64,000 bases of DNA from Pocillopora damicornis (taxonomy: Eukaryota): positions 62,001 to 126,000 of the forward strand of contig NW_020844981.1 in the NCBI RefSeq assembly GCF_003704095.1, written 5' to 3'. Made by a program: the position numbers and the translations under genes. Numbering within the stretch: position 1 is the stretch's first letter; each line of letters begins with the position of its first letter. Of the stretch, positions 1,815 through 62,725 are shown one piece after another. The notes beneath the pieces are model-generated. The model saw nothing but the letters and a program-made list of their open reading frames with translations, was not told where the DNA came from and did not search any database.

Positions 1815-9796
<7,982 letters not shown>

Positions 9797-42150: not shown

Positions 42151-44014
42151 GTTGTCTGAATTTGATTACATGGATACTTATGAAAATTTACGCACTGCAG
42201 TACAGTGCGTTCAAAAAACCTGTCGAAAAAAGGGGAGAGACCACTTTAATAGCAATAAGTGGTTACGCTATTAATAGTACCGTTGAAATGATGAATCGTC
42301 CGGACCTGGACTTTTAGGAGTATAAAGTTGTCAAGAAAGACTAATAAAAGTAAAGCTATTTTGTAAACAAATGGCTGGTACCTTGAACATGGATTAGTAC
42401 ATACATATCGCACAAGGATTCTATCTTTTAGCGCGTTCTGATTGGCCAACTCGGAGGTACGGAAAATCCAAGAGTATGTTTACAGTAAACATGGAAGTGC
42501 ATTAACACTTCGACTTTCGCCCCAGTTGCCGATATCTTGCTAGTGTCATGATAATTCTTACCATTTAACTTAACTAGATTTTAAAAGTAAACTGTGGAAG
42601 CAAAGTGTTCTTCCTTACTTTCTTTGAGGAGACAAAGCTAGTTGAAGGCAAATCCCAAAAGCTCATATAAAGACATTTCAGGCCACTTCAATATAGGGTT
42701 GACATCATTATATTAGTTTTTAAGGACAAAAATTCTTTTAAGATTTAAGTTCTTACGTCTCAATGGTAGAAAAAAGCACCGCAAACAATAAAGAGAGAAA
42801 CGGCGTGACCCTCAGGAAAAAACATTCCTTGGCAGAGATCCTTATTTTCTGGACGCTCCTCTATTAGGGGCAAGGAATATTTCCTAAATTTATACAATAT
42901 TGAAGCAATAAGCACATCAAGAAGTTTTGCAACTAGATTTTTAGCTAACTCTGCCAGTTGACTGAAATACCACACACGGTCCCCCTTGCAGATTTTTTTC
43001 GGCCATTGTGAGACACCAAATAAGAGCCAACATGTACGAAAAGGGAACTGATGTTCAAGAAGCCGATACTGATCCTGTTTTGTTATTTAAAAAAATAGGC
43101 AATTCTCTTCCTCATTCACTTAAATTCACAACTGACACTTATGCTGCTGTGTTAGAATTAACTTCGACTAGGTCCCAGTGATTTCGTGTCGCAATCAAAT
43201 ACGTCAAGCGACATGTAAAAACTTGCGCGGTAACACGCATTTAGCGTGCAACACAAAATCATTATTCGTCAAGACCACCGTTCAGCATTGAAACAATCCT
43301 TTCTTTTAGCATGTACTGATTTAAAGAACCGCAACAATATGACGAGATATTTATGGCTTAAATGTTGTGTGGTTTTCTGAAAAGTTGATTTCTTGCAATA
43401 TGTGTTGAGTGAATCCTCCTCCCCAGGCCCTCGAACGATTGGCTTCTGCTCATGAACGCTCCTCTGACAGAAGAGAATTAAAAACTAGCGTTTCCAAATG
43501 TCTCGCTAATATAACAGGATGATCAGCTTTGTAAATTATTTACAAAGCTGATCATTCAGCTCCCCTATTCCAAGCCTTGAATTTGAAATTATTGTCCCAG
43601 CTGCTAATTTGTGTGTTTTTTCAGGCGATGATCTTACAGGGTGAGCTCTAAAATATTTATGTACATGTTATACCCCATGTAATGGATGAATATTCAAAGA
43701 AACAGTGATTGTTGGCTTTTACTTGAGTTATTGTCAAGATTATAAAAAACGTTTATTTTAATGCTTAACTCTAGTGCACTTGAGCTGCGCAGAGCACGAC
43801 ACTGGGTTAAAAACCTGAATTACCGATTTATTTCAATGATTGACTCCCTGTTTGAACGTAATGTACAAGTACACTTGATTCCAAAAGAAAAGATTTCTAC
43901 CTACTTACCGTCATGGGTCAAATGCATTGAAACTTAACCGTCAAGTGTCAAGATAGGAATATTTTAACCGTCAACCGTCAAAGGTATCCTCCTTTTCAGA
44001 CCTTTAAGGAGGAA

Positions 44015-44903
44015 CGGGCCATTGGTTGGCCTGAGAACGAAAATAACTGTGAAAATGACAGTCCCAATTACTTTGTGCCAGAGACAAATGATCGCATTTT
44101 ATTGGCTGTCTGATGTGAGTGACGTAGGACGTATGCAGGGGAAAAACTCAAAGGACGAACAGAGAAAACTGAATTTATTTTTAAAGAAAGACACTGAAGA
44201 CTGCTGATCATGGTAAGTACTGTCTGTTTCAAAACAAGTGATACTATGCTATGTATTCACTACTGTTGTCTTTACTTAAGTAAGACTTTGGAGATTAAAG
44301 CGTCCCATCATGTCCCGATCATATCGCTGATGCGACTTGGTTGAAGGGAATTCTGATATCTGCGATAGAAAATGAAAAGTCAAGAGTTCGTAAAAACAGT
44401 TACAAACAGTGTGTACGAAATCCACGTTTTGAAATCCATTTACAACTACTAGGTTCGATCAATAAATAGCTTTAAACCAGCGCTAGTTAACTGGGTAATT
44501 ATTTTAGTGAGTTATGGAATACAAAATGCCCGCCTCTTCAGGGTCAATCTCTGTAAAACCTTTTTCTTCGACCTAACTTGAGCAGAATTCGATCTGTAAA
44601 GAGGAAGATTGAAAATCGAATATCTTTTACAGGAGCGTAACTGAGACCATTTACATTTCCTATGATTGGAAGGAAGATGAGATGCAAGTCACCCGAATAT
44701 TATGTGCATGTTCGATCTTTGGTACATTTATTTCAGTTTCTAAGTCTTACTTTCATTACTGATGATGGATTTGAACATGAAAAGATAAAACAATTTCCTT
44801 TATTTTACAGGAAACGACAAGCCTCAGTGTTTATTGCTTTTGAGCGGTTGGATTTTCATCAAGCGATCAATCACAGTACAATTGAAGCTTTTTCCTGTAA
44901 AAG
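44015..44903 (+). promoter_or_regulatory. Probable promoter and 5' leader exons of TPR-CHAT gene A (paralogous region about 52950-53821 in unit B)
   Basis: ATTGG boxes at 44021 and 44101; strong donor ATG|GTAAGT at 44212; exon TTTTACAG|44811-44903|GTAAGC; acceptor CTTACAG ending at 47861, 14 nt before the ATG; all splice sites are kept in unit B. Confidence 0.55.
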
Positions 44904-45934
44904 GTAAGCTATCTATGTGCGATGAATGAATGTTTTCATTTTCTAGTGGGTGTAACCTGCGTGATGAAGACAAAGACTTAATATGAAACACAGGTGGGCT
45001 TTTACGGGCGTCGTTGTGTAAACCGACGACCTTCCTACCAAAGTGTTACCATTAAAGGTATTCATTTCGATAAGAATGAAACATCGAGACAATCAGGGGT
45101 CACTACAGAGGTTTCAGGTTAACAATCTTTTAGGACCAATTAACAATTGATATCTCTCTCACGGATTTGGAATTTAATATTACTGCACTGAGCGATCATT
45201 CGAATAATGATAGAAATTCTTCACAGCTAAAGCTAATTTTTATATTCGAAAAAGTAGCAAACAAATTTGATGCCAAATGCTTACATCCTTTTTAGCTCTC
45301 AAAATTCTCAAATTTCTCTGAAGAAAGTTTAATGTTTATTGATGTTTATATCTATATTTGATTAATCAGAAACTGGAAAAGTCTCACTTTCCGAGGCTAA
45401 GCCAAAAAGGTGCGTTACGTTGTTAGTTGAGAGCACGAATTTGAAACAAAAGAAGCAATCAACTTCTTTTTATAGATGCAAATTACGTTGTTAGTTTCTC
45501 TCACTATTGTGGTCTGTTATCTATTACCTTTAAACCAGTCACAAAACTTATTTTTCAACGGAAGGGAGGGGAGGGGGCTGCACCTTTGTTTCATTGGAAT
45601 ATACCAGGANNNNNNNNNNTAAACCCACGTGGATATCCCTCGCCGTTATCGCCAATTTGTGACGACATGAAGGAAAATGAAAAGCCCTGAGGAAGGTACC
45701 TAACGAGAACAATGAAAATAGGACCTTATGAAATTTGAATGGATCAAATTCAAGAAAGATCTGAAATTAAAGTTTAATGTTCGGGTCGTTAAACTAATGT
45801 GGCAAAAACTAGACTAGATCTTAATCAACTGCTGAGAAGATGGCGACGGATGAAATACTCAGTTTAAAATCACGTAACGTCACAAAACCCAATATCCAAA
45901 CTTACATGGAATACAGCTGTATTTACATTCCGTG

Positions 45935-46262
45935 TAATTACTAAACGACTATTGGATGAGGTTTTTGTGATATTCGGAAGAATCAAGGTTGAGGTAGGGG
46001 TTGTCAGCCGAGCCAAAGGCTAATGCTGATAACCCTAAAAGAGATCTTGATTATTCTCGATATCACAACAACCGAATCTAATTATTGTTTTATTATACAT
46101 TGAACGAAAAAAAAAATGGTTGCGTCATGGTGACTTTAAGTGTCCTTGACATGATAATTGTGTAATCTGCAGCTAGATGACGTCTCAGGCGCTGAATTCA
46201 TGCAATCACTGTGCGTTTTCGGTCAATCAGAAAAGAGGTAGTGAGTTGAATGCATAATAATA
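45935..46262. repeat. Interspersed repeat, also at about 54830-55170 (duplicated with the unit); distant relative near 34860-35170
   Basis: Shared GCTGATAACCCT...CCGAATCTAATAATTG...CAATCAGAAAA...GTATAATAAT blocks. Confidence 0.5.
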
Positions 46263-47875
46263 TTCATTAAATAACGATCGAATGAACGGTCGAATGATTC
46301 AGTGTCAGTGGGTAAGTGAGTAGCGTTCCCTTTCTGAGTCCAAACAGGACGAATGAAGTTTGCCGTGATTCATTGGCCGGGGAAAAAGTCGAGGCTCCTA
46401 CCTTGAGCTGTAGGGATTTTAGTTCGAAATTATGGCGATTACTCTTGCATGCTGAACCAGTGCTGGTGTCTAAAGATTTGATCGAGCTGTTTATTTTTCT
46501 GTATTCTACAATATCTCAAATTCTTGGCTTCAGGCAATCAATATATTTACTTTTCGTTTCCTAGATTGCGTGACAAAGACAACCACTGATACCGAAATGC
46601 AAATATCGCAAATTCAAACCGGAAATCTTTCCTGACTGCAAATAACGCCTTTGTATAAATAATTGATTACATAAAAACTGAAATTCTGTGTGCCTCTTTT
46701 AGTGAAGTTCCAAAATCAGCCAATCCACTACAAACTTAATTTCAAAGCAATGATAACAAACAAATGACCGGAGAATTCAGAGAAAAAAAAACAATACCAA
46801 GAAATTATTTGCAATCGTACAGGGGTTGATTTTAGTGTTAAGTACGAATGATTGTCACATTGGCTATAAAGGTCGCACCGCAATGGCTTGGCACTTTCTA
46901 AAAGACTATTTACATTTCAAATATGAAAGCAAGTCATGCTTTGTTGATCTGGAGTGAATTACACAGTAACAAAAGTTGGGTTACCAAGTTTCAGCGAGCG
47001 CGAATTTTACTTGTCCATGAAAAACTGAAACGATATGGATGGACAGCTTGTGGTATCAGAATGAAAATTGGTGACAGACGGGAAGAAGCAGTGGATTGGA
47101 GAAACTAAGGAACAGTATGCACATCGGGTGGTTACTACACTTGCATCAGTAACAAGAGATTCTGTAGAAATCGCAGTGCATTTGTCATTTTGATTAACTG
47201 CATTAGCATGCTTTGGGAGTTGATTGTAATGATATATCCTAAGCACTTCAAATTGTTCATAGAATGTCTTGTTTGAAATATGTGTCTTACACAAATCCTA
47301 TTGCTAATGTAGATTGAAAGCCTCGCACCAGAAACCTCATTCGAGACGTCTTGTAAGATTTCTGTGTTTTGACGGTCTCTGGAGGGTCTCACTTGGAAAC
47401 AGTTGGAAAACTTTGTAGCCCCGGATACTTTAGGTACTTTCGTCTTAATATTCATAACATGACTTTTCTTTGGAATTGGTTTCGATGAATGAAACAGTTA
47501 ATTGGAAAAATACAGGAAAACATGCTTGTTATGAATCATCTGGAATTTCCTTTCCAAAAATTATTGAGTAAACCGAGTAAGTTGAGTGATAAGAACACTT
47601 ATCGATTGAGTGTTGTGTCTGAAATCAAAACCAAAGTAATCTTAATAGCCAATCAGAAGAAAGAAAAATACCCTTTAAGAGCCAATGAGAACTCAAAGAG
47701 TATTCATTTAAAAGCATTTCCTTCAGAGCCTCTCGTCATTTACGTGTAAGGAAGAACTACTGACGAGCTAAGCCGTCAGCCGCGTTTTGCACACTGTAAA
47801 TTTTTTTTTAATTACTCGCTTCTTATGTATAATGTTTCCTTCACTTCTTTCAAACTTACAGCAAAGAAGACTGCA

Positions 47876-50800
47876 ATGGACAAAATAGAAGGGGTTTTAG
47901 ACACAGTACAAGTGGTCTTTATAGGTATGACGATCGCCAATTTCCTTCTAAACACTGGTCGCCTTTCACCAGCCATTGAGTTGTGTAAGGAATGTCTGAG
48001 TTTACTAGACAGTCGGGCGCTTGATGAGATTGGAGATGCAGTGGATTACCGAATCCTTGGAACTCTGCACCAATCGGTTGGTGATTATAACAAGGCTCAA
48101 GAATATTACAAGAAAGCACTTGCTATCAAAATGGAAATTGGTGACAGAGGGGGAGAAGCAGTGGATCACGGAAATCTAGGAACAATGTTCCAATCGCTTG
48201 GTAATTATAAAAAGGCACAAGAACATTACATGAAAGCACTTTCCATCAGAACACAAATTGGTGACAGAAAGGGAGAAGCAGTGGTTTACAGAAACTTAGG
48301 AACCTTGTTCCAATCGCTTGGTAGTTATAACAAGGCACAAGAATATTACAAGAAGGCACTTGCTATCACAATAGAAATTGGTGACAAAGGGGGAGAAGCA
48401 GCGGTGTACGGAAATCTAGGAACAATGTTCCAATCGCTTGGTAATTATAAAAAGGCACAAGAATATCACGAGAAAGCACTTTCCATCAGAACACAAATTG
48501 GTGACAGAAAGGGAGAAGCAGTGGTTTATAGAAACCTAGGAACCATGTTCCAATTGCTTGGAGATTATAACAAGGCACAAGAATATTACAAGAAGGCACT
48601 TGCTATCACAATAGAAATTGGTGACAAAGGGGGAGAAGCAGCGGATTATGGAAATATAGGAACAATGTTCCAATTCCTTGGTAATTATAAAAAGGCACAA
48701 GAATATCACGAGAAAGCACTTTCCATCAGAGCACAAATTGGTGACAGAAAGGGAGAAGCAGTGGTTTATAGAAACCTAGGAACCTTGTTCCAATCGCTTC
48801 ATAATTATAACAAGGCACAAGAATATTACAAGAAAGCACTTGAAATCACACTGGAAATTGATGACAAAGGGGGAGAAGCAATGGCTTACGGAGACCTAGG
48901 AACAGTGTTCCAATCGCTTGGTAATTATAACCAGGCGCAAGGATATCACGAGAAAGCACTTGCTATCAGACTGGAAATTGGTGACAGAAAAGGAGAAGCA
49001 GCGCAATACGGAAACCTAGGAACAGTGTTCCAATCGCTTGGTAATTATAACAAGGCGCAAGAATATCACGAGAAAGCACTTGCCATCAGACTGGAAATTG
49101 GTGACAGAAAAGGAGAAGCAGCGGATTACAGAAACATAGGAACAGTGTTCCAATCGCTTGGTAATTATACCAAGGCACAAGAATATTATAAGAAAGCACT
49201 TGTCATCAGAATGGAAATTGGTGACAGAAAGGGAGAAGCAGTGGATTACGGAAATCTTGGAACGGTGTTCCAATCGCTTGGTAATTATTACAAGGCACAA
49301 GAATATTACAAGAAAGCACTTTCTATCAGACTGGAAATTGGTCACAGAAAAGGAGAAGCAGCGGATTACGGAAATCTAGGAACAGTGTTCCAATCGCTTG
49401 GTAATTATAAAAAGGCACAAGAATATTACATGAAAGCACTTGCTATCGGACTGGAAATTGGTGACAGAAAAGGAGAAGCAGCGGATTACGGAAACCTAGG
49501 AACCGTGTTTCAGTTGCTCGGTAATTATGCCCAGGCCCAGGAATATTACAAGAAAGCACTTGCTATCACAATGGAAATTGGTGACAAAGGGGGAGAAGCA
49601 GCGGATTACGGAAAGTTGGGAACAATGTTCCAATCGCTTGGTAATTATAAAAAGGCACAAGAACATCACGAGAAAGCACTTTCCATCAGAAAACAAATAG
49701 GTGACAGAGCAGGAGAAGCAGAGGATTACAAGAACCTTGGAATAGTGTTTCAATCGCGTGGTAATTATGACAAGGCACAAGAATATTACAAGAAAGCACT
49801 TGCTATTAGATCGGAAATTGGTGACAGAGAAGGAGAAGCAACGGATTACGGAAATTTAGGAAGACTGTTTGATTTACTCGGTGAACATGACAAGGCTCAA
49901 GAACATCTAGAGAAAGCACTACGAATTAGTAAGGAAATTTGCAACAGAAATCTAGAAGCAAGTTGTTATGCAAACCTTGGAGCTTTTTTTCTGTCACTCG
50001 GAAAATACCCTAGAGCAGATAAATATCTAGTACAAGCATTAGCAATAGCAAAGGAAATTGGCGATAAACATGGAGAGGCAGCAGTTTACAGTAATTTTGG
50101 GAGAATTTCTCACCATCTTCATGATTATGAAAAAGCTCAAGAATATCACAAGAAAGCCCTTGCAATCTATGAGGAAATTGGCGGCAGAGATGGAGAAGTA
50201 GTCGAATACGCAAGTTTGGGGGTATGTTTCCAATCACTTGGCATATATAACGTGGCCGAAAAATACATCAAGAGGGCCTTATTAATAAGCAAGAATATTG
50301 GACACAACTTTAATGAATTTAGCTGCCTTTGTCAACTAGCACAGTTGAAGCTATCACAATTTAATCTCAAAGAAGCCATATCATATCTTTTTCAGTGCAT
50401 TGGAAAATTCGATACGTTGCGAGGTTTCCTTAAAGATAACGATCAGTTTAAGACTTCTCTTTTAGAGAAGCACGGCAATTTTCCATACAAGTTGCTCAGT
50501 AAATTGCTTTCTTCTACCGGAAAGACAAGAGATGCTCTTTATGTTGAGGAGCTGAGACGGGCAAGAGGCCTCGCCGACTTCATGGCAGCCAAATACTCTG
50601 TTGAAGAGTTGATCTCAGGCAACCCACAGTCATGGCATGGCATTCAAACCATCATTACAAAAGAAACAAACTGTACATGTCTTTACATTTCAGTTGAAAA
50701 AGAACACGCACGGTACTGGATTCTCAAAGCATCAGGAGCCATTCACTTCTCACGAAAGAAAGTGAGTCTGGAGAAACGTGTGGTGACCAGATTAGTTCCT

Positions 50801-51175
50801 GATTTGGATCAGTATTTCACAGAAAGCTTTCGCAGCCTTGGCATTCTACTTCAACAGAATTGCGAAGATCGTTCATTAGATGACACCGAATCAATGCTAC
50901 CTCACTATGACCAAGACAATCGCGGGCTCATGCGTGATTTTGATCCGAAAGATTTTAAAACGAATCTTCAGTCGTGTTACGAGATAATCATCGCTCCCGT
51001 GGCCAGTTTACTGAAGGAGCCCGAGATTTTAATTGTCCCTGAATCCTGTATGTACCAAGTCCCATTTGCAGCCATCAGTGATGATGGAGGAACATATTTA
51101 GTGGATACCTTCAGGATCCGTGTCGTTCCCTCTCTGACGACTCTAAAGCTGATTCGGGACAGTTCCCCCGACTAC
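47876..51175 (+). CDS. TPR-array + CHAT domain protein A (TTC28-like architecture), 3' end lost in an assembly gap
   Basis: No intron in the visible CDS; likely start MDKIEG at 47876 after a splice acceptor; about 20 TPR units of 40 aa; then ALYVEELRRARGLADFM linker and CYEIIIAPVASLL...ILIVPE...YQVPFAAI...YLVDTFRIRVVPSL, the typical N-terminal part of a CHAT domain. ORF-track residues after the gap are not trustworthy. Confidence 0.9.
48050..49970 (+). repeat. Coding minisatellite: about 16 near-identical 120-bp TPR units, followed by about 4 diverged units
   Basis: GGAAA(C/T)CTAGGAACAGTGTTCCAATCGCTTGGTAATTAT...GAAATTGGTGACAGA recurs at exact 120-nt spacing. Confidence 0.95.
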
Positions 51176-51275
51176 NNNNNNNNNNNNNNNNNNNNNNNNN
51201 NNNNNNNNNNNNNNNNNNNNNNNNNNNNNNNNNNNNNNNNNNNNNNNNNNNNNNNNNNNNNNNNNNNNNNNNNNN
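51176..51275. other. Assembly gap (100 N, true size unknown); further gaps at 45610-45619, 59926-60025 and 61345-61444
   Basis: N runs. Confidence 0.99.
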
Positions 51276-54200
51276 TTAAAAGGCTTCTTCATCTTAACCA
51301 CTTCTATGTTTAGTCAACTCTTAGGGTATGATCCTATCACATTTGGAATGAAAGTCTACCCTGAGCGAGTCTAAGATTTTGAAAAGGCTTTATAGATATA
51401 ACCACATATCAAAATAATCATATTTCACGACTTATTTCGGATTTGATGTTACAGTTTAAGATTTAGCGATGTTGGAATATAAGCTACATCCACAAGTTTT
51501 TCGTCCCGGAACACAAAATAGATAAAAACATATTTTGTATTATTATTCTACATTAAAATCACAGGACGAACGTGCATATAATAAAAGGCAGACGGTGCGA
51601 AACAGTAATAAGACTCTCTCTTATCATAACTACGTAAGTACTTCCAATCATCCAAGTAGTTAATTCTTAAAACGCAAGATTCTCGTCCAAATATGAAAAA
51701 TAAAACTTTGATTCAACACTTAAAGGTCAGGACCCCTTCCTGTTCACGCTGAGATGGCCCCATTAAAGTTTTTCTGTCATTCACTTCAATGTCGAACTAA
51801 CTTTTTTAGTTCTGTTTCTTCCAAATTGCTTTATTTTACTGCAAAGGAAGTCCACATGCTTCTAACTTTATTCATCTTGTTTTTTTTTCCAAGTAAGAGA
51901 ACCCAACCTCACCGACCTTTAAGGTTAGTATTACGTTTCCTCGCCATTTTTTTCATATTCATTGTTGTCAATTATTGTCAATTAATTTCTCCATTTAAAG
52001 CAAAATGAAATAAATAATATCAATCAATATAAGACTAAACTGTTGGCAATTGTAAGAAAAAGAATTGATTACGAATAAACTGAACAATAAAAAGACTCGG
52101 CAAAAGAAAAGATAAAAGACTATTTCGAATTTCAAAACGCCTTACTTACTAAAGGAAGAAACTTGCGCGGCAACACGCATTTAGCGTGCAACACAAAATC
52201 ATTGTTCATCAAGACCACCGGCCATCATTGAAATTATCCTTTCTTTTAACATGTAATTATTTAGAGGATCGCATCAATATGACGAGAGATTCAAAGCTTA
52301 TATGTAGTGTAGTTTTCCGAAATGTTGATTTCTTGCAATTTGTGTTGGATGAATCCTCCTCCCCAGGCCTTCGAACGATTGGCTCCTGCTCATGGACGTC
52401 CTCTCTTATCGTAGAGAATTATCCGGCCATTAAAATAGGATGGTCAGCTATGTAAATTAACGCACAGTTCATTTACAAAGCTGATCATTCAGCTCCCCTG
52501 ATCTCATGCCTTGCATTTGAAATTAGCGTCCCAGCTGCTAATTAGTGTGTATTTTCAGGCGATGATCTTACAGGGTGAGCTCTACAATATTTATTTACAT
52601 GTTATACCCCATGTAATGGATGAATATTCAAAGAAACAGTGATTGTTGGCTTTTACTTGAGTTATTGTCAAGTTTATAACAAACGTTTATTTTCATACTT
52701 AACTCTAGTGCACTTGAGCTGCGCAGAGCACGACACTGGGTTAAAAACCTGAATTACCGATTTATTTTAATGATTCACTCCCTGTTTGAGCGTGATGTAC
52801 AAGTACACTTGATTCTAATGGAAACGATATCTACCTAATGGCCGTCAAGCGTCAAATGCCATAAAATGTAACCGTCAAGTGTCAAGATCGGAACGTTTTA
52901 ACCGTCAACCGTCAAAGGTATCCTCCTTTTGAGACCTTTGAGGAAGAAAGGGCCACTGGTTGGCCTGAGAACGAAAATGACTGTGAAGATGGCAGTTCCG
53001 ATGACTTTGTGCCAGAAGCCAATGATCGCATTTCATTGGCTGTCTGATGCGAGTGACGAAGGACGTATGCAGGGAAAAACTCACAGGACTAAAAGAGGAA
53101 ACTAAATTTATTTTTAAAGAAAGACACTGAAGACTTCTGATCATGGTAAGTGCTGTCTGTCTTAAAACAACTGATACCATGCTATGTATGCACTACTGTT
53201 GCCTTTACATAAGTAAGACTTTGGAGTTTAAAGCGTCCGATCATGTCGTTGTGACTTGGCAGAAGGAAATTCTGATATCTGCGATAGAAAATGAAAAGTC
53301 AAGAGTTCGCAACGAACAGTTACAAACTGTGCGTACGGTTTGATGTTTTGAAATCCATTCTACCGGGCTCGATCGATAAATAGCTTTAAACCAGCTCTAG
53401 TAATTTGGGTAATTATTTTAGTGAGTTACCCTTTTATGGAATATAAAAAGCTGGCCTCTTCATAGTCAATCGCTGTATAACTTTGGACTATTGACCAACT
53501 TGAGTAGAATTCGATCTGTAAAGATGAAAAATGGAATACGAATGTCTATTACAGGAGCGTTACTAATTCCTTTTTTTTCCCTACCATTGAAAGAAAGACG
53601 AGATGCGGGTCGCCCGAATATTATGTGTTCGATCTTAAGTACATTCATTTCAGTTTTCTACGTCTTTCTTTCATTACTGATGATGGATTTGAACATGAAA
53701 AGATAAAACAATTCACTTTATTTTACAGGAAACGACAAGCCTCATTGTTCATTCCTTTTGAGCAGTTGAATTTTCATCAAGCGATCAACCACAGCACAAT
53801 TGAAGCTTTTTCCTGTAAAAGGTAAGCTATCTGTGTGCGATGAGTGAATGTTTTCATTTTCTAGTAGTGGGCTTTTACGGGCGTTGTCTAAACCGACGAC
53901 ATTTCTACCTAAGTGTTACCATTAAAGTATTTATTTAGATGAGAATGAAACATCGAGACAAACAGGTGTCACTACTGAGGTTTCAGGTAGACAATCTTTA
54001 AGTAACAATTAACAATTGATATGTCTCTCACGGATTTGGAATTTGAGATTACTGCACTAAGCGATCGTTCGAATGATGATAAAAATTCTTCACAGCTAAG
54101 GCTAATTTTTATACTCGAAAATTTAGCGAACAAATTTGAAGAAATGCTTGCAGCCTTTTCCGCTCTCAAAATTCTCGAATTCCTTCAAAGAAAGTTTAAG

Positions 54201-56838
54201 GTTTATTCATTGATGTTAGGATGATTTGATTATTCAGAAACTGGAAAAGTTTCACTTTCCAAGGCTAAACCAAAAATGTGCATGACGTTGTTTGTTGAGA
54301 GCACGAATTTGAAGTAAAAGAAGCAATAAACCTCGTTTTACAGATGCAGATTACGTTTTAGTTTTTCTTACTATTGTGGTCTGTTATCTATGTACCTTTA
54401 AACCAGTCACAAAACTTATTTTTTAACGGAAGGGAGGGGAGGGGGCTGCACCTGTGTTTCATTGGAATATACTAGGATGTGTTGGGGGGGGAGGGGAGTT
54501 GTAAAGGTACTCAAGGCCCACGTGGATGCCCCCCAGCCAATTTATCGCCAATTTGTGACATAATATAGGAAAATGAAAGGGCCCGTGTAAGGTATCTGAC
54601 GAGAACAATGAAAATAGGAACTGATGAAATCTAAATGGATCAAATTCAAGAAAGATCTGAAATTGATATTTGATGTTCGGGTCGTTAAACTAATGGTGAC
54701 AAAAACTAGATTAGATCTCAATTAAGTACTGAGAGGATGACGACGGATGAAATACTCTGTTTAAAATCACGTAACGTCACCAAACCCAACATCCAAACTC
54801 ACATGGATTACACCTATATTTTCACTCAATGAAATTACTGAACGATCATTTGATGAGGTTTTTATAATATTCAGAAGAATCAAGTTTGAGGTAGGAGTTA
54901 TCAGCCGAAGCCGAAGGCTAATGCTGATAACCCTTGAAGAGACCTTGATTATTCTGGATATCACAACAACCGAATCTAATTATTGTTTTATTATACATTG
55001 AACGAAAAGAAAAAATTGTCGCTTCGTGGTGGCCTTGAGTGTCCATGACATGATTATTGTATAATCTGCGGCTAAAAGACGTCCTAGGAGCTGATTTCGA
55101 AAATTCACGCGATCACTGAGCGCTTTCGGTCAATGAGAAAAGAGATAGTGAGTTGAATGTATAATAATATTCATTAAATGACAATCGAATTCTTTGTCCA
55201 CTAAACAGTCGAATAATTCAGTGCCAGTGGGCAAGTGAGTAGCGCTCCCTTTCCAAGTCCAAACAGGACGGATGAAGTTTGCCGTAATTCATTGGCCAGG
55301 GAAAAAGTCGCGGCTCCAACATTGAGAATTTTAGTTCGAAATTATGGCGAATAACTCTTTCGTACTGAACCAGTGACTGTGTTTAAATATTTCATCGAGC
55401 TGTTTATTTTTCTGTATTTTACAATATCTCAAATTCTTGGCTTCAAGCAATCAATATATTTTCTTTTTAGTTTCATAGATTGCGTGACAAAGAGAACCAC
55501 TGATACTGTAGCTGTTTCCCTAGGCCGACTAATTATAGCTTTGGAAATGTTTCCGAAATGCAAATGATCGCAAATTCAAACCGGAAATCTTTCCTGACTG
55601 CAAATGACGCCTTTACATATATAGACATGTGATTACATAAAAACCGAAATTCTGTGTGCCTCTTTTAGTGAAGTTCCAAAATCAGCCAATCCACTACAAA
55701 CTTTATTCTAAGACAATGATAACAAACAAATGACCAGAGAAATCACAGAAAGAAAAAACCAATAGTAAGAAATTATTTTAAGTCGAACAGGGGTTGATTT
55801 TTAGTGTTAAGTACGAATGAATGTCACATTGGCTTTAAAGGTCGCACCGTGATGGTTTGGCACTTTCTTAGAGATTATTTTCATTTCAAATTTGAAAGCG
55901 AGTCATGCTTTGTTGATCTGGAGTGAATTACACAGTAACAAAAGTTGGATTAGCATGTTTCAGCGAGCGCGAATTTTACGTGTCCATGATTAAAAACTGA
56001 AACGATAAGTATGGACAGCTTCTGGTATCAGAATGAAAATTGGTGACAGATGGGAAGAAGTAGTGGAGTAGAGAAACCTAGGAACAGTATTCACACAGCT
56101 TGGTTACTATACTGGCATCAGCAATAGGAGATTCTGAAGAAATCTTGCATTTGTCAGCTGATTAACTAAAGCAGTGTGCATTGGGAGTTGACTGTAGTGA
56201 CATATCTCAAGCACTTCAAAATTCTTCATAGAATGTCTTGTTTGAAATAAGTGTCTTACACAAATCCTATTGCTTACGTAGATTGAAAGCCTCGCACCAG
56301 AAATCTCATTCGTGACGTCTTGTAAGATTCCTGTTCCTTTTCCACGGTGTCTGGAGGGTCTCACTTGGAAACAGTTGGAATACTTTTAATCCACGGATAC
56401 TTTAGGTACTTTCCTTTTAATATCCATAACATGATTTTTCTTTGCAACTGGTTGTGATGAATGAAACAGTTAATTGGAAAATATAGGAAAACATGTTTGT
56501 TATGAATTATCCGGAATTTTACTTTCCAAAATTAATAAGAAACTAGGTAAGTTAAGTAATAAGAGCACTTTTCAATTGAGTGTTAATTGTGTGTGAAATC
56601 AAAACCAAAGTAATCTTAACAGCCAATCAGAATAAAGAGAATTACCCTTTAAAAGCCAATGAGAACTCAAAGAGTATTCACTTAAAAGCATTTCCTTCAG
56701 AGCCTCTCATCATTTACGTATAAGAAGAACTACCGACGAGCTAAGCCGTTAGCAGCGTTTTGCGCGCTGCAATTTTTTTCCCTTCTTATGTATAATGTTT
56801 CCTTCACTTCTTTCAAACTTACAGCAAAGAAGCCAACA

Positions 56839-59800
56839 ATGGACAACATAGAAGGGGTTTTAAACGCAGTGCAAGTGGTCTTGGTAGGTACGACGATCGC
56901 CAATTTCCTTCTAAACACTGGTCGTCTTTCACCAGCCATAGAGTTGTGTAAGGAATGTTTGAGTTTACTAAACAGTCAGCCGCTTGATAAGGATGGACCA
57001 ATTACCCACTCAATTCTCGTCCAACAGGGAAGGTTAAATTTATTACTAGCAACTACACTTTACACTCAATCGAAGTTTGTGGAGGCCAGAAAATTTTATG
57101 AGAGAGCAATAAAAATCATGAAAACGAATGACGACGAACGAGGAAAAGCAATTTGTTACGGAGGCTTAGCAAAATTACTTTATTCCTTTGGAGAATATGA
57201 CAAATGTAAAAAATATCTGGAGAAGGCCTGCGCGATTAGAAAGCAAATTGGTGACAGAGTCGGAGAAGCAGTGTATTACAGAGAACTAGGAGGACTGTCC
57301 ATATTGCGTGGTAACTATGACAAGGCACAAGAATATATCAAGAAAGCACTTGCCATCAGAACACAAATTGGTGACAGAAAGGGAGAAGGAATGGAGCAAG
57401 GATTCCTGGGAACAGTGTTCCAAATGCTCGGTAATTATGACCAGGCGCGAAAATATCTCGAAAAAGCACTTGCCATTAGACTGGAAATTGGCGACAGAGA
57501 AGGAGAAGCAGCCGATTACGAAAACCTTGGAACAGTGTTCCGATCGCTTGGTAACTATGACAAGGCACAAGAATATTACAAGAAAGCACTTGCTATCACA
57601 CTGGAAACTGGTGACATAAAGGGAGAAGCGAAGATTTACGGAAACCTAGGAACAGTGCTCCGGTTGCTTGGTGATTATGACCAGGCGCAAGAATATTACA
57701 AGAAAGCACTTGCTATCAGACAGGAAATTGGTGACAGAGTAGGACAAGCAGCGGATTACAACAACCTAGGAGCAGTGTTCCAATTTCATGGTAATTATGA
57801 TCAGGCACAAGAATATTACAAGAAAGCACTTGCCATAAGTCTGGAAACTGGTCTCCGACAAGGAGAAGCAGCGGTATACGGAAACCTAGGAACAGTGTTC
57901 CAATCGCTTGGTAATTATGACAAGGCGCAAGAATATTACAAGAAAGCACTGGCCATCAGAATGGAAATTGGTGACAGAAAGGGAGAAGCAGCGAATTACG
58001 GGTGCCTAGGAACAGTATTTCAATCGCTTGGTAATTATGCCCAGGCGCAAGAATATCACGAGAAAGCAATGGCCATCAGAATGGAAATTGGTGACAGAGC
58101 AGGAGAAGCAGTGGATTACGGAAACCTAGGAACAGTGTTTCAATCGCTTGGTAAATATAACATGGCACAAGAATATTACAAGAAAGCACTGGCCATCACA
58201 ATGGAAATTAGTGACAGAAGAGGAGAAGCAGCAGATTATGGATGCCTTGGATCAGTGTTCCAATCGCTTGGTAACTATAAGCAGGCACAGGAATATTACG
58301 AGAAAGCACTGGCCATCAGAATGGAAATTGGTGACAGAGCAGGAGAAGCAGTGGATTATGGAAATCTAGGAACAGTGTTTCGATCGCTTGGTAATTATGG
58401 CCAGGCGCAAGAATATTACGAGAAAGCACTAGCTATCACACTGGAAATTGGTGACAGAGAAGGAGAAGCAGCGGATTACGGAAACCTAGGAACAGTGTTC
58501 CAATCACTTGGTTATTATAACCAGGCGCAAGAATATCACGAGAAAGCACTGGCCATCAGAAGGGAAATTGGTGACAGAAAAGGAGAAGCAACGGATTACG
58601 AAAACTTAGGGGGACTGTTTGCAATACTCGGTGAACATGACAAGGCTCAAGAATATCTCGAGAAAGCTCTACGTATTAGAAAGGAACTCTGCAACAGAAA
58701 TGGAGAAGCAAGTTGTTATGCAAACCTTGGAGCTTTGTTTCTGTCACTCGGAAAATACCCTAAGGCAGATAAATATCTAGAGCACTCATTGGCAATAATG
58801 AAGGAAATTGGCGATAAAAATGGAGAAGCAGATGTTTATGGTCATTTTGGGATAATTTCTCATCATCTTCATGATTATGAAAAAGCTCAAGAATATCACA
58901 AGAAAGCCCTTGCAATCTATGAGGAAATTGGCGACAGAAATGGAGAAGCAGTCGAGTACACAAATTTAGGGAAATGTTTCCAATCGCTTGGCAGATATAA
59001 TGTGGCCGAAAAATACATCAACAGGGCCCTATTAATAAGCAAGAATATTGAACACAACTTGAACGAATATGGGTGCCTTCGTCACCTTACGGTGTTGAAA
59101 CTATCACAATTTAATCTCAAGGAAGCCATGTCGTATCTTTTTCAGTGTATTGGGAAATTCGACACGTTGCGAGGTTTCCTTAAAGATAACGATCAGTTTA
59201 AGACTTCTCTTTTAGAGAAGTACGGCAATTTTCCTTATAAGTTGCTCAGCAACTTGCTTTCTTCTACCGGGAAGCCAAGAGATGCTCTTTATGTTGAAGA
59301 GCTGAGACGGGCAAGAGGCCTCGCCGACTTCATGGCAGCCAAGTACTCTGTAGAAGAGCTGATCTCAGGCAATCCACAGTCATGGCATGGCATTCACAAT
59401 ATCATCACAAAAGAAACAGACTGTACATGTCTTTACATTTCAATTGGAAAAGAACATGCACGGTACTGGATTCTCAAAGCATCAGGAGCCATTCATTTCT
59501 CACGAAAGAAAGTGAGTCTGGAGCAACGCGTGGTGACCAAATTAGTTCCTAATTTGGATGAGTTTTTCACAGAAAGCTTTCGCAGCCTTGGCATTTTACC
59601 CCAACGGAATTGTGAAGATCGATCATTAGATGACACCGAATCGATGCCACCTCACTATGCCGATGACAATCACGGGCTCCTGCGTGATTATGATCCAAAA
59701 GATTTCAAAACGAATCTTCGGTCGTGTTACGAGATAATCATCGCTCCCGTGGCCAGTTTACTGAAGGAGCCCGAGATTTTAATTGTCCCTGAATCCTGTA

Positions 59801-60099
59801 TGTACCAAGTCCCATTTGCAGCCATCAGTGATGAAGGAGGAACATATTTAGTAGATACTTTCAGGATCCGCGTCGTTCCCTCTCTGACGACTCTAAAGCT
59901 GATTCGGGACAGTTCCCCCGACTACNNNNNNNNNNNNNNNNNNNNNNNNNNNNNNNNNNNNNNNNNNNNNNNNNNNNNNNNNNNNNNNNNNNNNNNNNNN
60001 NNNNNNNNNNNNNNNNNNNNNNNNNTCATGCTTATTGGCGATAACGTGACATTTGATTTTGAAAACTGGCCAGTGTCTAAAACATCCAAACAGCCATGA
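56839..60099 (+). CDS. TPR-array + CHAT domain protein B (TTC28-like architecture), catalytic core lost in an assembly gap
   Basis: Paralogue of gene A; start MDNIEG at 56839; about 18 TPR units; CHAT N-terminal part before the gap; after the gap MLIGDNVTFDF...stop matches the usual CHAT C-terminal strand (WA.F.LIG). Confidence 0.9.
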   Translation: MDNIEGVLNAVQVVLVGTTIANFLLNTGRLSPAIELCKECLSLLNSQPLDKDGPITHSILVQQGRLNLLLATTLYTQSKFVEARKFYERAIKIMKTNDDERGKAICYGGLAKLLYSFGEYDKCKKYLEKACAIRKQIGDRVGEAVYYRELGGLSILRGNYDKAQEYIKKALAIRTQIGDRKGEGMEQGFLGTVFQMLGNYDQARKYLEKALAIRLEIGDREGEAADYENLGTVFRSLGNYDKAQEYYKKALAITLETGDIKGEAKIYGNLGTVLRLLGDYDQAQEYYKKALAIRQEIGDRVGQAADYNNLGAVFQFHGNYDQAQEYYKKALAISLETGLRQGEAAVYGNLGTVFQSLGNYDKAQEYYKKALAIRMEIGDRKGEAANYGCLGTVFQSLGNYAQAQEYHEKAMAIRMEIGDRAGEAVDYGNLGTVFQSLGKYNMAQEYYKKALAITMEISDRRGEAADYGCLGSVFQSLGNYKQAQEYYEKALAIRMEIGDRAGEAVDYGNLGTVFRSLGNYGQAQEYYEKALAITLEIGDREGEAADYGNLGTVFQSLGYYNQAQEYHEKALAIRREIGDRKGEATDYENLGGLFAILGEHDKAQEYLEKALRIRKELCNRNGEASCYANLGALFLSLGKYPKADKYLEHSLAIMKEIGDKNGEADVYGHFGIISHHLHDYEKAQEYHKKALAIYEEIGDRNGEAVEYTNLGKCFQSLGRYNVAEKYINRALLISKNIEHNLNEYGCLRHLTVLKLSQFNLKEAMSYLFQCIGKFDTLRGFLKDNDQFKTSLLEKYGNFPYKLLSNLLSSTGKPRDALYVEELRRARGLADFMAAKYSVEELISGNPQSWHGIHNIITKETDCTCLYISIGKEHARYWILKASGAIHFSRKKVSLEQRVVTKLVPNLDEFFTESFRSLGILPQRNCEDRSLDDTESMPPHYADDNHGLLRDYDPKDFKTNLRSCYEIIIAPVASLLKEPEILIVPESCMYQVPFAAISDEGGTYLVDTFRIRVVPSLTTLKLIRDSSPDYXXXXXXXXXXXXXXXXXXXXXXXXXXXXXXXXXXMLIGDNVTFDFENWPVSKTSKQP
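57230..58730 (+). repeat. Coding minisatellite: about 12 similar 120-bp TPR units
   Basis: Same 120-nt periodicity as in gene A. Confidence 0.93.
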
Positions 60100-62725
60100 G
60101 AGAAGCGAATCCTTTGAAATGGACCAAGTAAAATTTGCAACCATCAATTGCCTTCCTGTGGAAAGAGGACGCCGTCTATGAAGGACAAGATTGATTAACG
60201 AAAAACTCTTCTGTGAACGCTTTGTGTAACAATCTGGAACAAGACAGTTCATAATTCAGTGTTTATTAGCCGGCAGTTAAGCTGTGAACAAAGTTCATAT
60301 GTCAAAACAAACAAAATCTGAGTACGTATTTTCCAAAAGCGATAACCAAACAAATATAAAGCAGTTTTTTTTCGCAAATAATTAGTTATTTAAGCGAAGC
60401 AAATTTTTTCCAATTTTTTTTTCCACTTTCTTGTATTTTCTTATAAAAGGATATGGTAATTAAATGTTTCGACAGCTCTTTTTGCAAAGAAATAAGTTTT
60501 AAAATCGCAATAAGGTCGATATAGCGCTCTCCTTGTCTCTTGTATCTATACGGAATATAATGCTTAAAATTTTTCCTTGAAATTGATTGCCTGAGTTATC
60601 AGTTTTTCACGGGCTAAAATTTTCAAATATTAAATGAACATTCGTTTCGACACAAAACATTCTCAAGACTATTCTAGTTTTAGGAGCAGTTTACAGTCTG
60701 TAATATTCTATTGCAGATATATGTGTATAGGTCTGTTTTGTAAACTTCTATGTTGAGTGACTTCCATTGGTGACCCTCTAGTTTAGTTTGTAAAGGTTAT
60801 TATTTTTGGTAAAATCGCTTTCAAGAATCTATGTTTAAGAGACAGGCCAGCCATTAATAAAGAGACATCTGTAACTTTAGCTATAAAAATTTTTTTTTCA
60901 GGACTCAATAAGTTTATTAGGGGCAGTTGTCATTGTGCGATGTTCAAGTTTACTAACGTTTAATTAAAAGAAATTATTTTACTTAAGGTCTTCTCATATC
61001 CTGCTGAAGATTTGTAGGACAGACTTATTTTCCTTTATTGACTCATTTAGGACTTAGATTCTTTTAGCCAGTCCCTCTCCGTTAGTTTGAACGTGACACA
61101 TGATGGCTGGTAGACTGGGACTGACGGAACTCCGCGTTCAATTTTGAAAAAAGTGTAACATTTTCTTCTAAATTTGTCTTTACTTTTAATTCACATTTTT
61201 TTCCATTTTATTACATAAATACTATCTCAATTATAAACTGACACGTTTTCAATTCCGTCTAGTGTAACTTGTAAATGGACTTTCCTTATTGTTAAAAGGC
61301 TTCTTCATCTTAACCACTTCTATGTTTAGTCAACTCTTAGGGTANNNNNNNNNNNNNNNNNNNNNNNNNNNNNNNNNNNNNNNNNNNNNNNNNNNNNNNN
61401 NNNNNNNNNNNNNNNNNNNNNNNNNNNNNNNNNNNNNNNNNNNNTTAAAAGGCTTCTTCATCTTAACCACTTCTATGTTTAGTCAACTCTTAGGGTATCA
61501 TCTTATCACATTGGAATGAAAGTCTACCCTGAGCGAGTCTAAAATTTTAAAAAGGCTTTAAAGATTTAACCACATGTCAAAATAACCATATTTCACGACT
61601 TATTTCGGAGTTGATGATAAAATACATTTTGTATTATTATTCTACGTTAAAATCACAGGACGAACGTGCATATAATAAAAGGCAGACGTGCCAAACAGTA
61701 ATAACACTTTCTCTTATCATAACTACGTAAGTACTTCCAATCATCCAAGTATTTAATTCTTATAAACGCAAGATTCTTATCCAAATGTGAAAAATTAAAA
61801 TTGACGCGACACTCAAGGGTCAGGGCACCTTCCTGTTCACTGTGAGATGGCCCCACACAGACATGATCCCATTAACTTTTTTGTCATTTACTTCAATTTC
61901 GAAGTAATTCTTCTTAATTCTTTTTTTGTTTCAACTAAATTGTTTTATTTTACTGCAAAGCAAGTCTATTTGCTTCTAACTTTATTCATCATCTTTTTCC
62001 ATAGTTTTTTTTCCAAGCGAGAGAACCCAACTTCACCAGCCTTTAAAGTTACTAAAAGGTTTCCTCGCCATTTTTCCATATTCATTGTTGACAATTATTG
62101 TCTATTAATTTCTCCATTTAAAGCAAAATGAAATAAATAATAACATAAAAAGTCGTTTAACTAATTCAACAAACTCAAAATATAAGACTAAACTGTTGGC
62201 AATTGTATGTAAGAAAATTGATTACGAATAAACATATCAATAGAAAAACTCGGTGAAAGCTAAGATAAAAGACTATATTCGAATTTTCAAAACGCCTTAC
62301 TTACTAAATGAAGAAACATGTAAAGGAGGTTTTACTTCCATGAGAAAAACTGGTCATTTTCATTTCGACTGCTTCGCGCTAACCCTCCTAGGTAACTCGG
62401 GCAACTCTTGAGCAACTCGGAAATTGCGTGCAATATAATAGCGCTGATCACTTAACTCCGTTTGACCAGCATTCATACATCTTGAACTTTTAAGATTTTT
62501 CCTTCGACTTCCGTATTTCTGTCTGTCAAAATGAGTTGAAATGCTGAATGTTAGTGTCCAGTTTTCTCAGTTTTCTTCATGCTGGTTGATTTTCTCGTTA
62601 CCAACACTACAAGGGAGGAAGGGAGGAATATTGCAATAACTGCAAGAGGGGCTACAGGACAGGATAAAATGATATGTGGCTTTTTCTAAACTGGCGCTGA
62701 TGCTTGGTCAGAATTGCGATATATT

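What the first reader, a model, noticed from the sequence alone, without database searches (positions are those of the whole stretch)
48150..58730. Variation concentrated at fixed repeat positions, a TALE-like variable-residue pattern
Seen: the scaffold (LGT.FQSLGNY..AQEY..KAL.I..EIGD..GEA) barely changes, while the residues right after GEA differ. Gene A reads VDHG, VVYR, AVYG, VVYR, ADYG, VVYR, MAYG, AQYG, ADYR, VDYG, ADYG, ADYG, ADYG, EDYK, TDYG. Gene B reads VYYR, MEQG, ADYE, KIYG, ADYN, AVYG, ANYG, VDYG, ADYG, VDYG, ADYG, TDYE. The residue after GNY also varies (K/N/T/Y/A/D/G). Inference: the post-GEA positions lie on helix A, which lines the TPR ligand groove, so repeat order could encode binding specificity.
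Basis: partly seen in the sequence, partly recalled or inferred. Interest (0 to 1): 0.7.

Follow-up and report, generated by a model that had tools for sequence, protein, structure and literature searches.

The report
Coral repeat-protease genes, variable binding groove
These are two copies of a known, hugely expanded coral gene family that joins a spiral of protein repeats to a likely caspase-type protease; their repeat differences form no TALE-like two-letter code, but across the family the face of the spiral predicted to bind partners evolves fast, as expected of likely immune sensors.

Summary
The listed residues are exact (27 of 27). They lie in two tandem TPR-CHAT ('TTC28-like') genes of a Pocillopora-type coral, from a published family expansion (PMC12314368). 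The emphasis is wrong for these two genes. The four post-GEA positions hold 22% of the non-scaffold differences against 27% expected, and positions 32, 38 and 18 vary more. The commonest post-GEA variants are CpG transitions. The window's dN/dS signal is matched by 8 of 44 neutral gene-conversion simulations. Repeat order is largely kept between alleles. So there is no TALE-like code. The underlying idea does hold for the family: dN/dS at the six TPR groove positions exceeds that of the outer helix in 22 of 22 other arrays of this genome (pooled about 2, beyond every simulation), led by positions 12, 9 and 2. The family keeps a His-Cys dyad (52 of 59 copies) whose Cys most true TTC28 proteins lack, and it forms a clade apart from TTC28. 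Best reading: diversified peptide sensors coupled to a shared caspase-like protease, as in fungal NLR repeats; function is untested. The scan noted this pattern before on other DNA.

The parts
47825..51175 (+). Gene A: uninterrupted TPR-CHAT reading frame (1117 codons up to an assembly gap)
   Evidence: ORF list and translation; Pfam TPR_12 and start of CHAT
48032..50311 (+). Gene A TPR array: 19 units of 120 bp / 40 aa; homogenised core 48152-49831, four diverged terminal units 49832-50311; the six units at 48152-48871 alternate as a 240-bp dimer
   Evidence: TRF period 120; unit table; identity at lag 2 is 0.93 against 0.82 at lag 1
50312..50965 (+). Gene A linker between the TPR array and the CHAT domain; present in RNA contigs
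   Evidence: folds like the separase/Csx29 region before the protease core in an allele model
50966..51175 (+). Gene A start of the CHAT caspase-like domain (Pfam positions 4-74 of 289)
   Evidence: an RNA contig runs on past the gap edge into CHAT-coding letters (loose end)
51176..51275 (.). 100-N gap hiding the rest of gene A's CHAT domain, catalytic motifs included
   Evidence: alleles 98-99% identical in the linker carry the whole domain
56788..60099 (+). Gene B: TPR-CHAT paralogue, interrupted by a 100-N gap at 59926-60025; its last 23 codons and stop lie at 60028-60099
57142..59061 (+). Gene B TPR array: 16 units of 120 bp; homogenised core 57502-58581
   Evidence: AlphaFold2 model with mean pLDDT 89.6
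59716..59925 (+). Gene B start of the CHAT domain
43219..48034 (+). Upstream block duplicated with the gene (84% identical to 52159-56997): A and B are one tandem duplication of about 9 kb
   Evidence: self-BLAST
47051..47140 (+). Decayed single TPR unit with a stop codon upstream of gene A; its twin lies at 56023-56112

Best explanation
Genes A and B are tandem copies of the expanded coral TPR-CHAT family, whose 40-residue repeats are predicted to form a peptide-binding spiral that likely acts as a variable sensor for a shared, likely active caspase-type protease. SHOWN: the repeats are homogenised within genes and subfamilies; structural positions are purified; across the family the concave helix-A positions (12, 9, 2; less firmly 3, 13, 38, 5) change faster than neutral while the outer helix is conserved; the CHAT domain is nearly identical between A-type and B-type alleles and keeps its His and Cys. 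INFERRED: unequal crossing-over and gene conversion duplicate, delete and mix units; selection retunes the groove as one continuous surface to which each repeat gives several residues, not one code letter; ligand binding would release the protease from autoinhibition, as non-self RNA does for Csx29, probably in immunity or cell death. In A and B themselves the groove is currently close to neutral, and much of the post-GEA variation is CpG decay spread by conversion.
For: TPR_12 plus CHAT architecture; at least 136 linker and 138 CHAT matches in G000. The nearest unit lies in the same locus for 200 of 270 units. Pooled dN/dS over 16 other arrays (214 units): 3.0 at position 12, 2.5 at 9, 2.0 at 2 (likelihood ratios 83, 61, 34), against a simulated null whose largest site reaches 20.5 at the 95th percentile and 37.8 at most. 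The signal survives a CpG-aware model and, as a class, site-specific synonymous rates (dN/dS 2.0, ratio 19.5). In six held-out distant arrays position 2 gives 3.0 (ratio 26). Groove exceeds outer helix in 22 of 22 arrays. His plus Cys in 52 of 59 genome copies and 108 of 110 resolved homologues. The allele model matches Csx29 (Z 23.8, rmsd 8.2, 525 aligned) and separase (Z 22.1, rmsd 4.2, 322 aligned). CHAT identity between A-type and B-type alleles is 95-99%, against 87% in the linker. RNA contigs cover the linker in 4 of 4 runs laid and an intergenic control in 0 of 4.
Against: No ligand, substrate or activity was tested. For A and B alone the groove class is 1.0 and 1.25 or 0.7 with free synonymous rate. 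With site-specific synonymous rates, positions 12 and 2 lose significance in the family (ratios 3.8 and 0.2); 9, 38 and 5 remain. In the held-out arrays positions 9 and 12 are weak (ratios 2.1, 4.3) and 3 and 5 are below 1. Position 5 drops out under the CpG model. The null used 6 simulated replicates per array, one tract length and no multi-base mutations. The arrays are related and not fully independent. Among alleles of one 13-unit paralogue the groove is less variable than the outer helix (7 of 84 against 17 of 108 sites). Variable concave positions are a general property of TPRs (PMC1261162). 7 of 59 copies lack the His or the Cys. The catalytic region of A and B lies in assembly gaps.
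Confidence: 0.6

Rival explanations
1. Neutral repeat turnover: exposed positions drift, CpG sites mutate fast and gene conversion fakes positive selection; the variation means nothing for specificity. This is the likelier account of genes A and B taken alone.
For: CpG transitions run about 3-5 times faster here. 8 of 16 variant codons at position 2 are GCG>GTG, 5 of 10 at position 5 are GGA>AGA after TAC, and 4 of 10 at position 13 are TCG>TTG. Neutral simulations with conversion exceed the nominal threshold in 24 of 44 runs and reach the observed statistic in 7 of 44 (23.2) or 8 of 44 (17.8 on the same tree method). About 43% of informative site pairs are incompatible at every distance.
Against: It does not reproduce the family result: pooled groove ratio 136.7 against a null maximum of 11.7; groove dN/dS of 2 or more in 11 of 16 real arrays and 9 of 96 simulated ones. 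Equally exposed outer positions 19, 22, 26 and 33 are conserved (0.15-0.5). Positions 9 and 12 show eight or more residues, not CpG pairs.
Confidence: 0.25
2. TALE-like cipher: each repeat reads one unit of a polymer through the post-GEA residues, and repeat order spells the target.
For: Near-identical tandem repeats; 17 different post-GEA words in 27 units; positions 2 and 5 face the groove; alleles or assemblies differ in repeat number.
Against: Positions 2 and 3 hold only 25 of 225 differences. The groove is polar and nearly neutral (12 K/R and 6 D/E in 162 residues). The best structural matches are LGN-peptide complexes. The order of the 3' units is almost the same in four other A-type sequences. 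Position 3 is conserved in distant subfamilies (dN/dS 0.2).
Confidence: 0.05
3. TTC28-like cell-cycle scaffolds: duplicated canonical TTC28 with housekeeping partners and an idle CHAT domain, as PMC9145168 suggests.
For: Same domain order and 40-residue repeat; database names say 'TTC28-like'; the expansion and TTC28 group together against eight bacterial CHATs (97/93).
Against: A separate canonical TTC28 exists in G000 (L096) and lacks the Cys, as do 101 of 118 TTC28 homologues. The expansion (27 rows, 100/100) and TTC28 (18 rows, cnidarian to vertebrate, 100/99) are separate clades. The searched homologues lack the TTC28 C-terminal family PF26117.
Confidence: 0.1

Closest known systems
Coral TPR-CHAT domain-containing proteins / TTC28-like expansion (PMC12314368; PMC9145168; PMC6208414)
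   Same: Architecture, tandem duplication, hundreds of copies, variable TPR length; PMC12314368 already suggests that TPR diversity widens the range of partners (section 15 part 1).
   Different: Nothing in membership. The main text of PMC12314368 has no hit for 'nonsynonymous', 'catalytic', 'protease', 'gene conversion' or 'concave', so site-level selection and the kept dyad are additions made here.
Highly conserved TPR/ANK/WD repeats of fungal NLRs (PMC4986451) and brown algal NB-ARC-TPR proteins (PMC3341825)
   Same: Near-identical repeats, concerted evolution, repeat-number change, positively selected sites on the concave TPR face (passages).
   Different: No NACHT or NB-ARC switch here; the repeats are N-terminal and fused directly to a C-terminal protease; the repeats sit in one reading frame rather than one exon each, as in Ectocarpus.
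Bacterial TPR-CHAT proteases: Csx29/Craspase (PMC9729208), DdvA (PDB 8ROT), cyanobacterial TPR-CHAT
   Same: Fold, His-Cys motifs in register, about 35% CHAT identity to cyanobacterial proteins.
   Different: Csx29 is switched on through a CRISPR effector and RNA; no such partner here. The tree places the coral family with TTC28 rather than inside the eight bacterial rows.
LGN/GPSM2 and Pins TPR domains
   Same: 40-residue repeat with the NLG motif; best sequence and Foldseek matches among natural solved structures, all peptide complexes.
   Different: LGN repeats are old and diverged, carry GoLoco motifs (recalled) and no protease.
TAL effectors
   Same: Tandem near-identical helical repeats.
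   Different: TALEs read DNA one base per repeat through residues 12 and 13 (search listing); here variation is spread over about 15 positions and the fold is TPR.

Membership tests
Coral TPR-CHAT expansion | N-terminal TPR array (PF13424/PF13176) followed by one CHAT domain (PF12770) | tested here: met
   the CHAT domain is cut by gaps in the window and complete in alleles P0006 and P0001
Coral TPR-CHAT expansion | Tandem, multi-copy family in a scleractinian genome | tested here: met
   nearest named homologues are Pocillopora and Stylophora proteins
Active CHAT (caspase/separase-like) protease | Catalytic His and Cys in register | tested here: met
   A-type and B-type alleles carry both motifs; register from 8ROT and bacterial CHATs; not readable in the window's own gaps
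Active CHAT (caspase/separase-like) protease | Demonstrated proteolysis and substrate | not testable with these tools
   needs biochemistry
Canonical TTC28 orthologues | Nests within the pan-metazoan TTC28 clade | tested here: not met
   separate clades, 100/100 and 100/99; the true orthologue is L096
TALE-type repeat code | Variation confined to two adjacent residues per repeat | tested here: not met
   positions 2-3 hold 25 of 225 differences
TALE-type repeat code | One repeat reads one nucleotide; DNA-binding fold | tested here: inconclusive
   TPR fold, peptide-binding matches and a neutral groove argue against it; binding itself was not tested
Fungal NLR-type hypervariable repeats (works like) | High internal repeat identity with concerted evolution | tested here: met
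   core units 83% identical on average, closest pairs up to 94%; 200 of 270 nearest units in the same locus. The paper's own cut-off is 85% at protein level and was not applied
Fungal NLR-type hypervariable repeats (works like) | Positive selection on the concave face | tested here: inconclusive
   met for the family; not met for genes A and B alone
Fungal NLR-type hypervariable repeats (works like) | Repeat-number polymorphism between individuals | tested here: inconclusive
   A-type sequences with 19, 13 and 7 units and one in-register loss of a unit; assembly collapse is not excluded
NLR proteins | NACHT or NB-ARC NTPase domain | tested here: not met
   no such Pfam match among the 25 best shown for A and B, nor in P0006 or P0001

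The most novel reading that the evidence does not exclude
Corals carry a germline repertoire of hundreds of receptor-proteases: recombining TPR arrays whose groove residues 2, 9 and 12 are under diversifying selection, wired to one homogenised, catalytically intact caspase-like domain. The family is a sister of TTC28 rather than its copy, and would be the animal counterpart of bacterial TPR-CHAT defence proteases and of fungal NLR repeats.
Probability: 0.35. Interest if true: 0.72.

Novelty: new member of a known kind. Interest (0 to 1): 0.37.

Why it matters
How corals recognise pathogens and symbionts without adaptive immunity is open. TPR-CHAT genes are among the most expanded families in coral genomes, and the papers read here treat them as TTC28 copies of unknown role. 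The family-level result names the residues to swap (2, 9, 12) and the dyad to mutate, which makes the sensor-protease idea testable. The finding as written, a TALE-like code in these two genes, is not supported. It also shows that standard dN/dS tests on such arrays give false positives in more than half of neutral simulations.

Tried and rejected
Pairwise dN/dS per codon and M1a/M2a on the window's 23 core units suggested selection at 2, 13, 18 and 32; rejected as window-level evidence after the neutral simulations. My first dyad count read the first Cys of the CC pair; the catalytic register is the second, recounted. The first held-out extraction kept only one array because the profile score cut-off was too strict; redone by register (6 of 17 arrays were homogeneous enough; 11 dropped). 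Allele comparisons by position were noisy: unit losses and false gene starts misalign the A set, and the five groups disagree (groove above outer helix in 3 of 5). Linker identities involving P0176 are out of register and were ignored. A recent bacterial origin was considered; the tree does not support it, but it holds only eight plasmid-borne bacterial rows. The scan of prokaryote genomes gave one contig at 65% identity (L111), likely coral DNA in a bin; it is not in the tree. The structure tool returns no coordinates, so concave or convex was assigned by TPR numbering, not measured. A search for a paper on LGN groove residues gave nothing usable. The sequence look-up of earlier findings was empty. 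The absence of RNA contigs on the intergenic control is weak, because the runs were chosen for holding the gene. Repeat number was not tested on reads. No complex was predicted, since no partner is known.
Full report
WHAT IS THERE. The window is animal DNA: a multi-exon VPS13-family gene fills much of the left part (Pfam VPS13_N) and two long open frames follow, A at 47825 and B at 56788. Both encode an array of 40-residue TPR units (120-bp period), a linker and the start of a CHAT domain, and both run into a 100-N gap at the same codon. They are one tandem duplication of about 9 kb, upstream DNA included (84% identity). The best named homologues are 'TTC28-like' proteins of Pocillopora and Stylophora; a P. 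verrucosa protein is 99% identical to A over the last 290 readable residues. G000 holds at least 136 linker matches and 138 CHAT matches (lower bounds, not copy numbers).

CHECK OF THE OBSERVATION. All 27 post-GEA words are as listed and the scaffold is kept at 91%. In TPR numbering, fixed by the NLG motif and the alignment to consensus TPR, the word is positions 2-5. The model of B's array (mean pLDDT 89.6) puts helix A at positions 37-13 and helix B at 17-34, so the word is on helix A. But it is not where most variation is. Entropy is highest at 32, 38 and 18, then 3 and 2. Positions 2-5 hold 36 of 225 differences, which is 22% of those at the 15 non-scaffold positions against an even share of 27%.

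SELECTION IN THE WINDOW. I wrote a codon model (M0, M1a, M2a on unit trees). Two confounders matter. First, the consensus carries CpG at exactly these codons: GCG at 2, TAC|GGA at 4-5, TCG at 13. The commonest variants are the deamination products, and the fitted CpG rate is 3 to 5 times background; with it only 18 and 32 stay above 0.95 in A and B, while the 56-unit set keeps 2, 3, 13 and 32. Second, units recombine or show heavy homoplasy (about 43% incompatible site pairs at all distances). Neutral forward simulations with conversion and CpG decay passed the nominal threshold in 24 of 44 runs and reached the observed value in 7 of 44, or 8 of 44 at the like-for-like value of 17.8. As a class, the groove positions give 1.0 in A and 1.25 in B against 1.0 and 0.65 for the outer helix. 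So positive selection on the post-GEA residues of these two genes is not shown.

SELECTION IN THE FAMILY. From 40 fetched stretches I took 55 distinct TPR frames; 16 outside the A/B subfamily had eight or more homogeneous units (214 units). Pooled, dN/dS exceeds 1 at 12 (3.0, ratio 83), 9 (2.5, 61), 2 (2.0, 34), 3, 38, 31, 13, 5 and 24, while 18 is 1.0 and 32 is 0.5. PMC1261162 (passages) lists 2, 5, 6, 9, 12 and 13 as the concave ligand contacts. In 2000 resamples of simulated neutral arrays (6 replicates per array) the largest site ratio was 20.5 at the 95th percentile and 37.8 at most; the pooled groove ratio was 136.7 against a null maximum of 11.7. A CpG-aware fit keeps 12, 9, 2, 3 and 38 and drops 5. 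Letting the synonymous rate vary by site keeps 9, 38 and 5 and the groove class (2.0, ratio 19.5) but not 12 or 2 alone. Six distant arrays, of 17 examined in 40 further stretches, repeat position 2 (3.0, ratio 26), weakly 13, 12 and 9, and not 3 or 5. Groove exceeds outer helix in 22 of 22 arrays.

ORDER AND NUMBER. The nearest unit lies in the same locus for 200 of 270 units; A's first six listed units alternate as a dimer; only 2 of 9 B units are nearest to another B unit. This fits duplication in blocks and exchange among close paralogues. Yet four other A-type sequences keep the order of the 3' units almost unchanged, and 14 sequences of a 13-unit paralogue keep one order. A-type sequences with 13 and 7 units and one in-register loss of a unit exist, but assembly collapse could make them. 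There is no sign of rapid reshuffling.

THE PROTEASE. A-type and B-type alleles carry the whole CHAT domain with both catalytic motifs, and it ends in the same residues as B after its gap. By register with DdvA and bacterial CHATs the second Cys of the pair is the catalytic one. His and Cys are present in 52 of 59 genome copies with both motifs readable and in 108 of 110 resolved homologues. A model of allele P0006 (pLDDT 73.7) matches Csx29 and separase. CHAT is 95-99% identical between A-type and B-type alleles while the linker is 87%, which likely explains the twin gaps. The genome's true TTC28 (L096) lacks the Cys, like 101 of 118 TTC28 homologues, and the expansion and TTC28 are separate clades that group together against eight bacterial rows. 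RNA contigs cover the linker at low depth in four runs from three studies, one running on into CHAT; an intergenic control was empty. Contigs cannot prove transcription of an intron-free stretch.

MECHANISM. Shown: architecture, concerted evolution, purified core, fast groove in the family, kept dyad. Inferred: the groove binds extended peptides as LGN does (best matches; Asn at position 6 in 21 of 27 units; its backbone-binding role is recalled); several residues per repeat form one continuous surface; binding would switch on the protease as in Craspase (PMC9729208, passages); the role is probably immune or cell-death signalling. Ligand and substrate are unknown.

WHAT IS KNOWN. The expansion is published: PMC12314368 (passages and section 15 part 1), PMC9145168 (passages), PMC6208414 (passages). 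Positive selection on concave TPR positions of near-identical repeats is published for fungal NLRs (PMC4986451, passages), and diversifying selection on TPR exons for brown algae (PMC3341825, passages). PMC8195603 and PMC10236652 (passages) added nothing on this family. TALE features come from a search listing. Searches found no site-level selection analysis or dyad survey for coral TPR-CHATs; supplements were not read and subscription papers are not covered. Earlier notes of this scan describe the same pattern on other DNA.

VERDICT. A real but misweighted observation in ordinary members of a known family. The TALE analogy fails. The family-level groove selection and the kept dyad are modest additions that make a sensor-protease hypothesis testable. 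Interest 0.37.

Noticed in passing
window 51176-51275 and 59926-60025: Both genes break into a 100-N gap at the same codon, where the CHAT domain becomes 95-99% identical between paralogues; the homogenised protease domain likely defeats short-read assembly across the family.
   Followed up: partly
window 11174-41398 (approximate): Multi-exon VPS13-family gene (Pfam VPS13_N at 11174-12454); its exon at 11174 is strongly CpG-depleted (observed/expected 0.17) against 0.60-0.89 in the TPR-CHAT genes. The paralogue name VPS13B is recalled, not tested.
   Followed up: no
window 1815-2561 (-): End of a protein kinase domain (Pfam Pkinase, weak); looks like CDC7 from recall.
   Followed up: no
window 47051-47140 and 56023-56112: A single decayed TPR unit with a stop codon lies about 700 bp upstream of each gene, copied with the duplication.
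   Followed up: partly
window 61293-61344 and 61445-61496 (approximate): The same stretch of about 50 bp flanks both sides of the third 100-N gap, a likely scaffolding overlap.
   Followed up: no
L096:2543-7354 (-), G000:C3436: Canonical TTC28 of this coral, most of it in one 1604-codon frame, without the catalytic Cys; 17 of 118 TTC28 homologues, largely arthropod where named, still have a Cys there.
   Followed up: partly
L098:3380-6145 (-) and L099: Two divergent CHAT gene types: one TPR-CHAT with Tyr in place of the catalytic His on a long branch, and a pair of CHAT genes in short exon-like frames with both catalytic motifs.
   Followed up: no
L095, L094, L097, L087, L092, L075, L086: Seven family copies lack the catalytic Cys or His while the neighbouring Cys is kept; possible decoys or decaying copies.
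   Followed up: no
L111 (record CBDDTI010000257.1): A bacterial metagenome bin holds a contig 65% identical to the coral CHAT domain, likely host contamination.
   Followed up: no
all arrays: The synonymous rate also varies along the unit: higher around helix A positions 11-14 and lower over much of helix B. Linked diversity near selected sites, conversion bias or a model artefact could each explain it.
   Followed up: no
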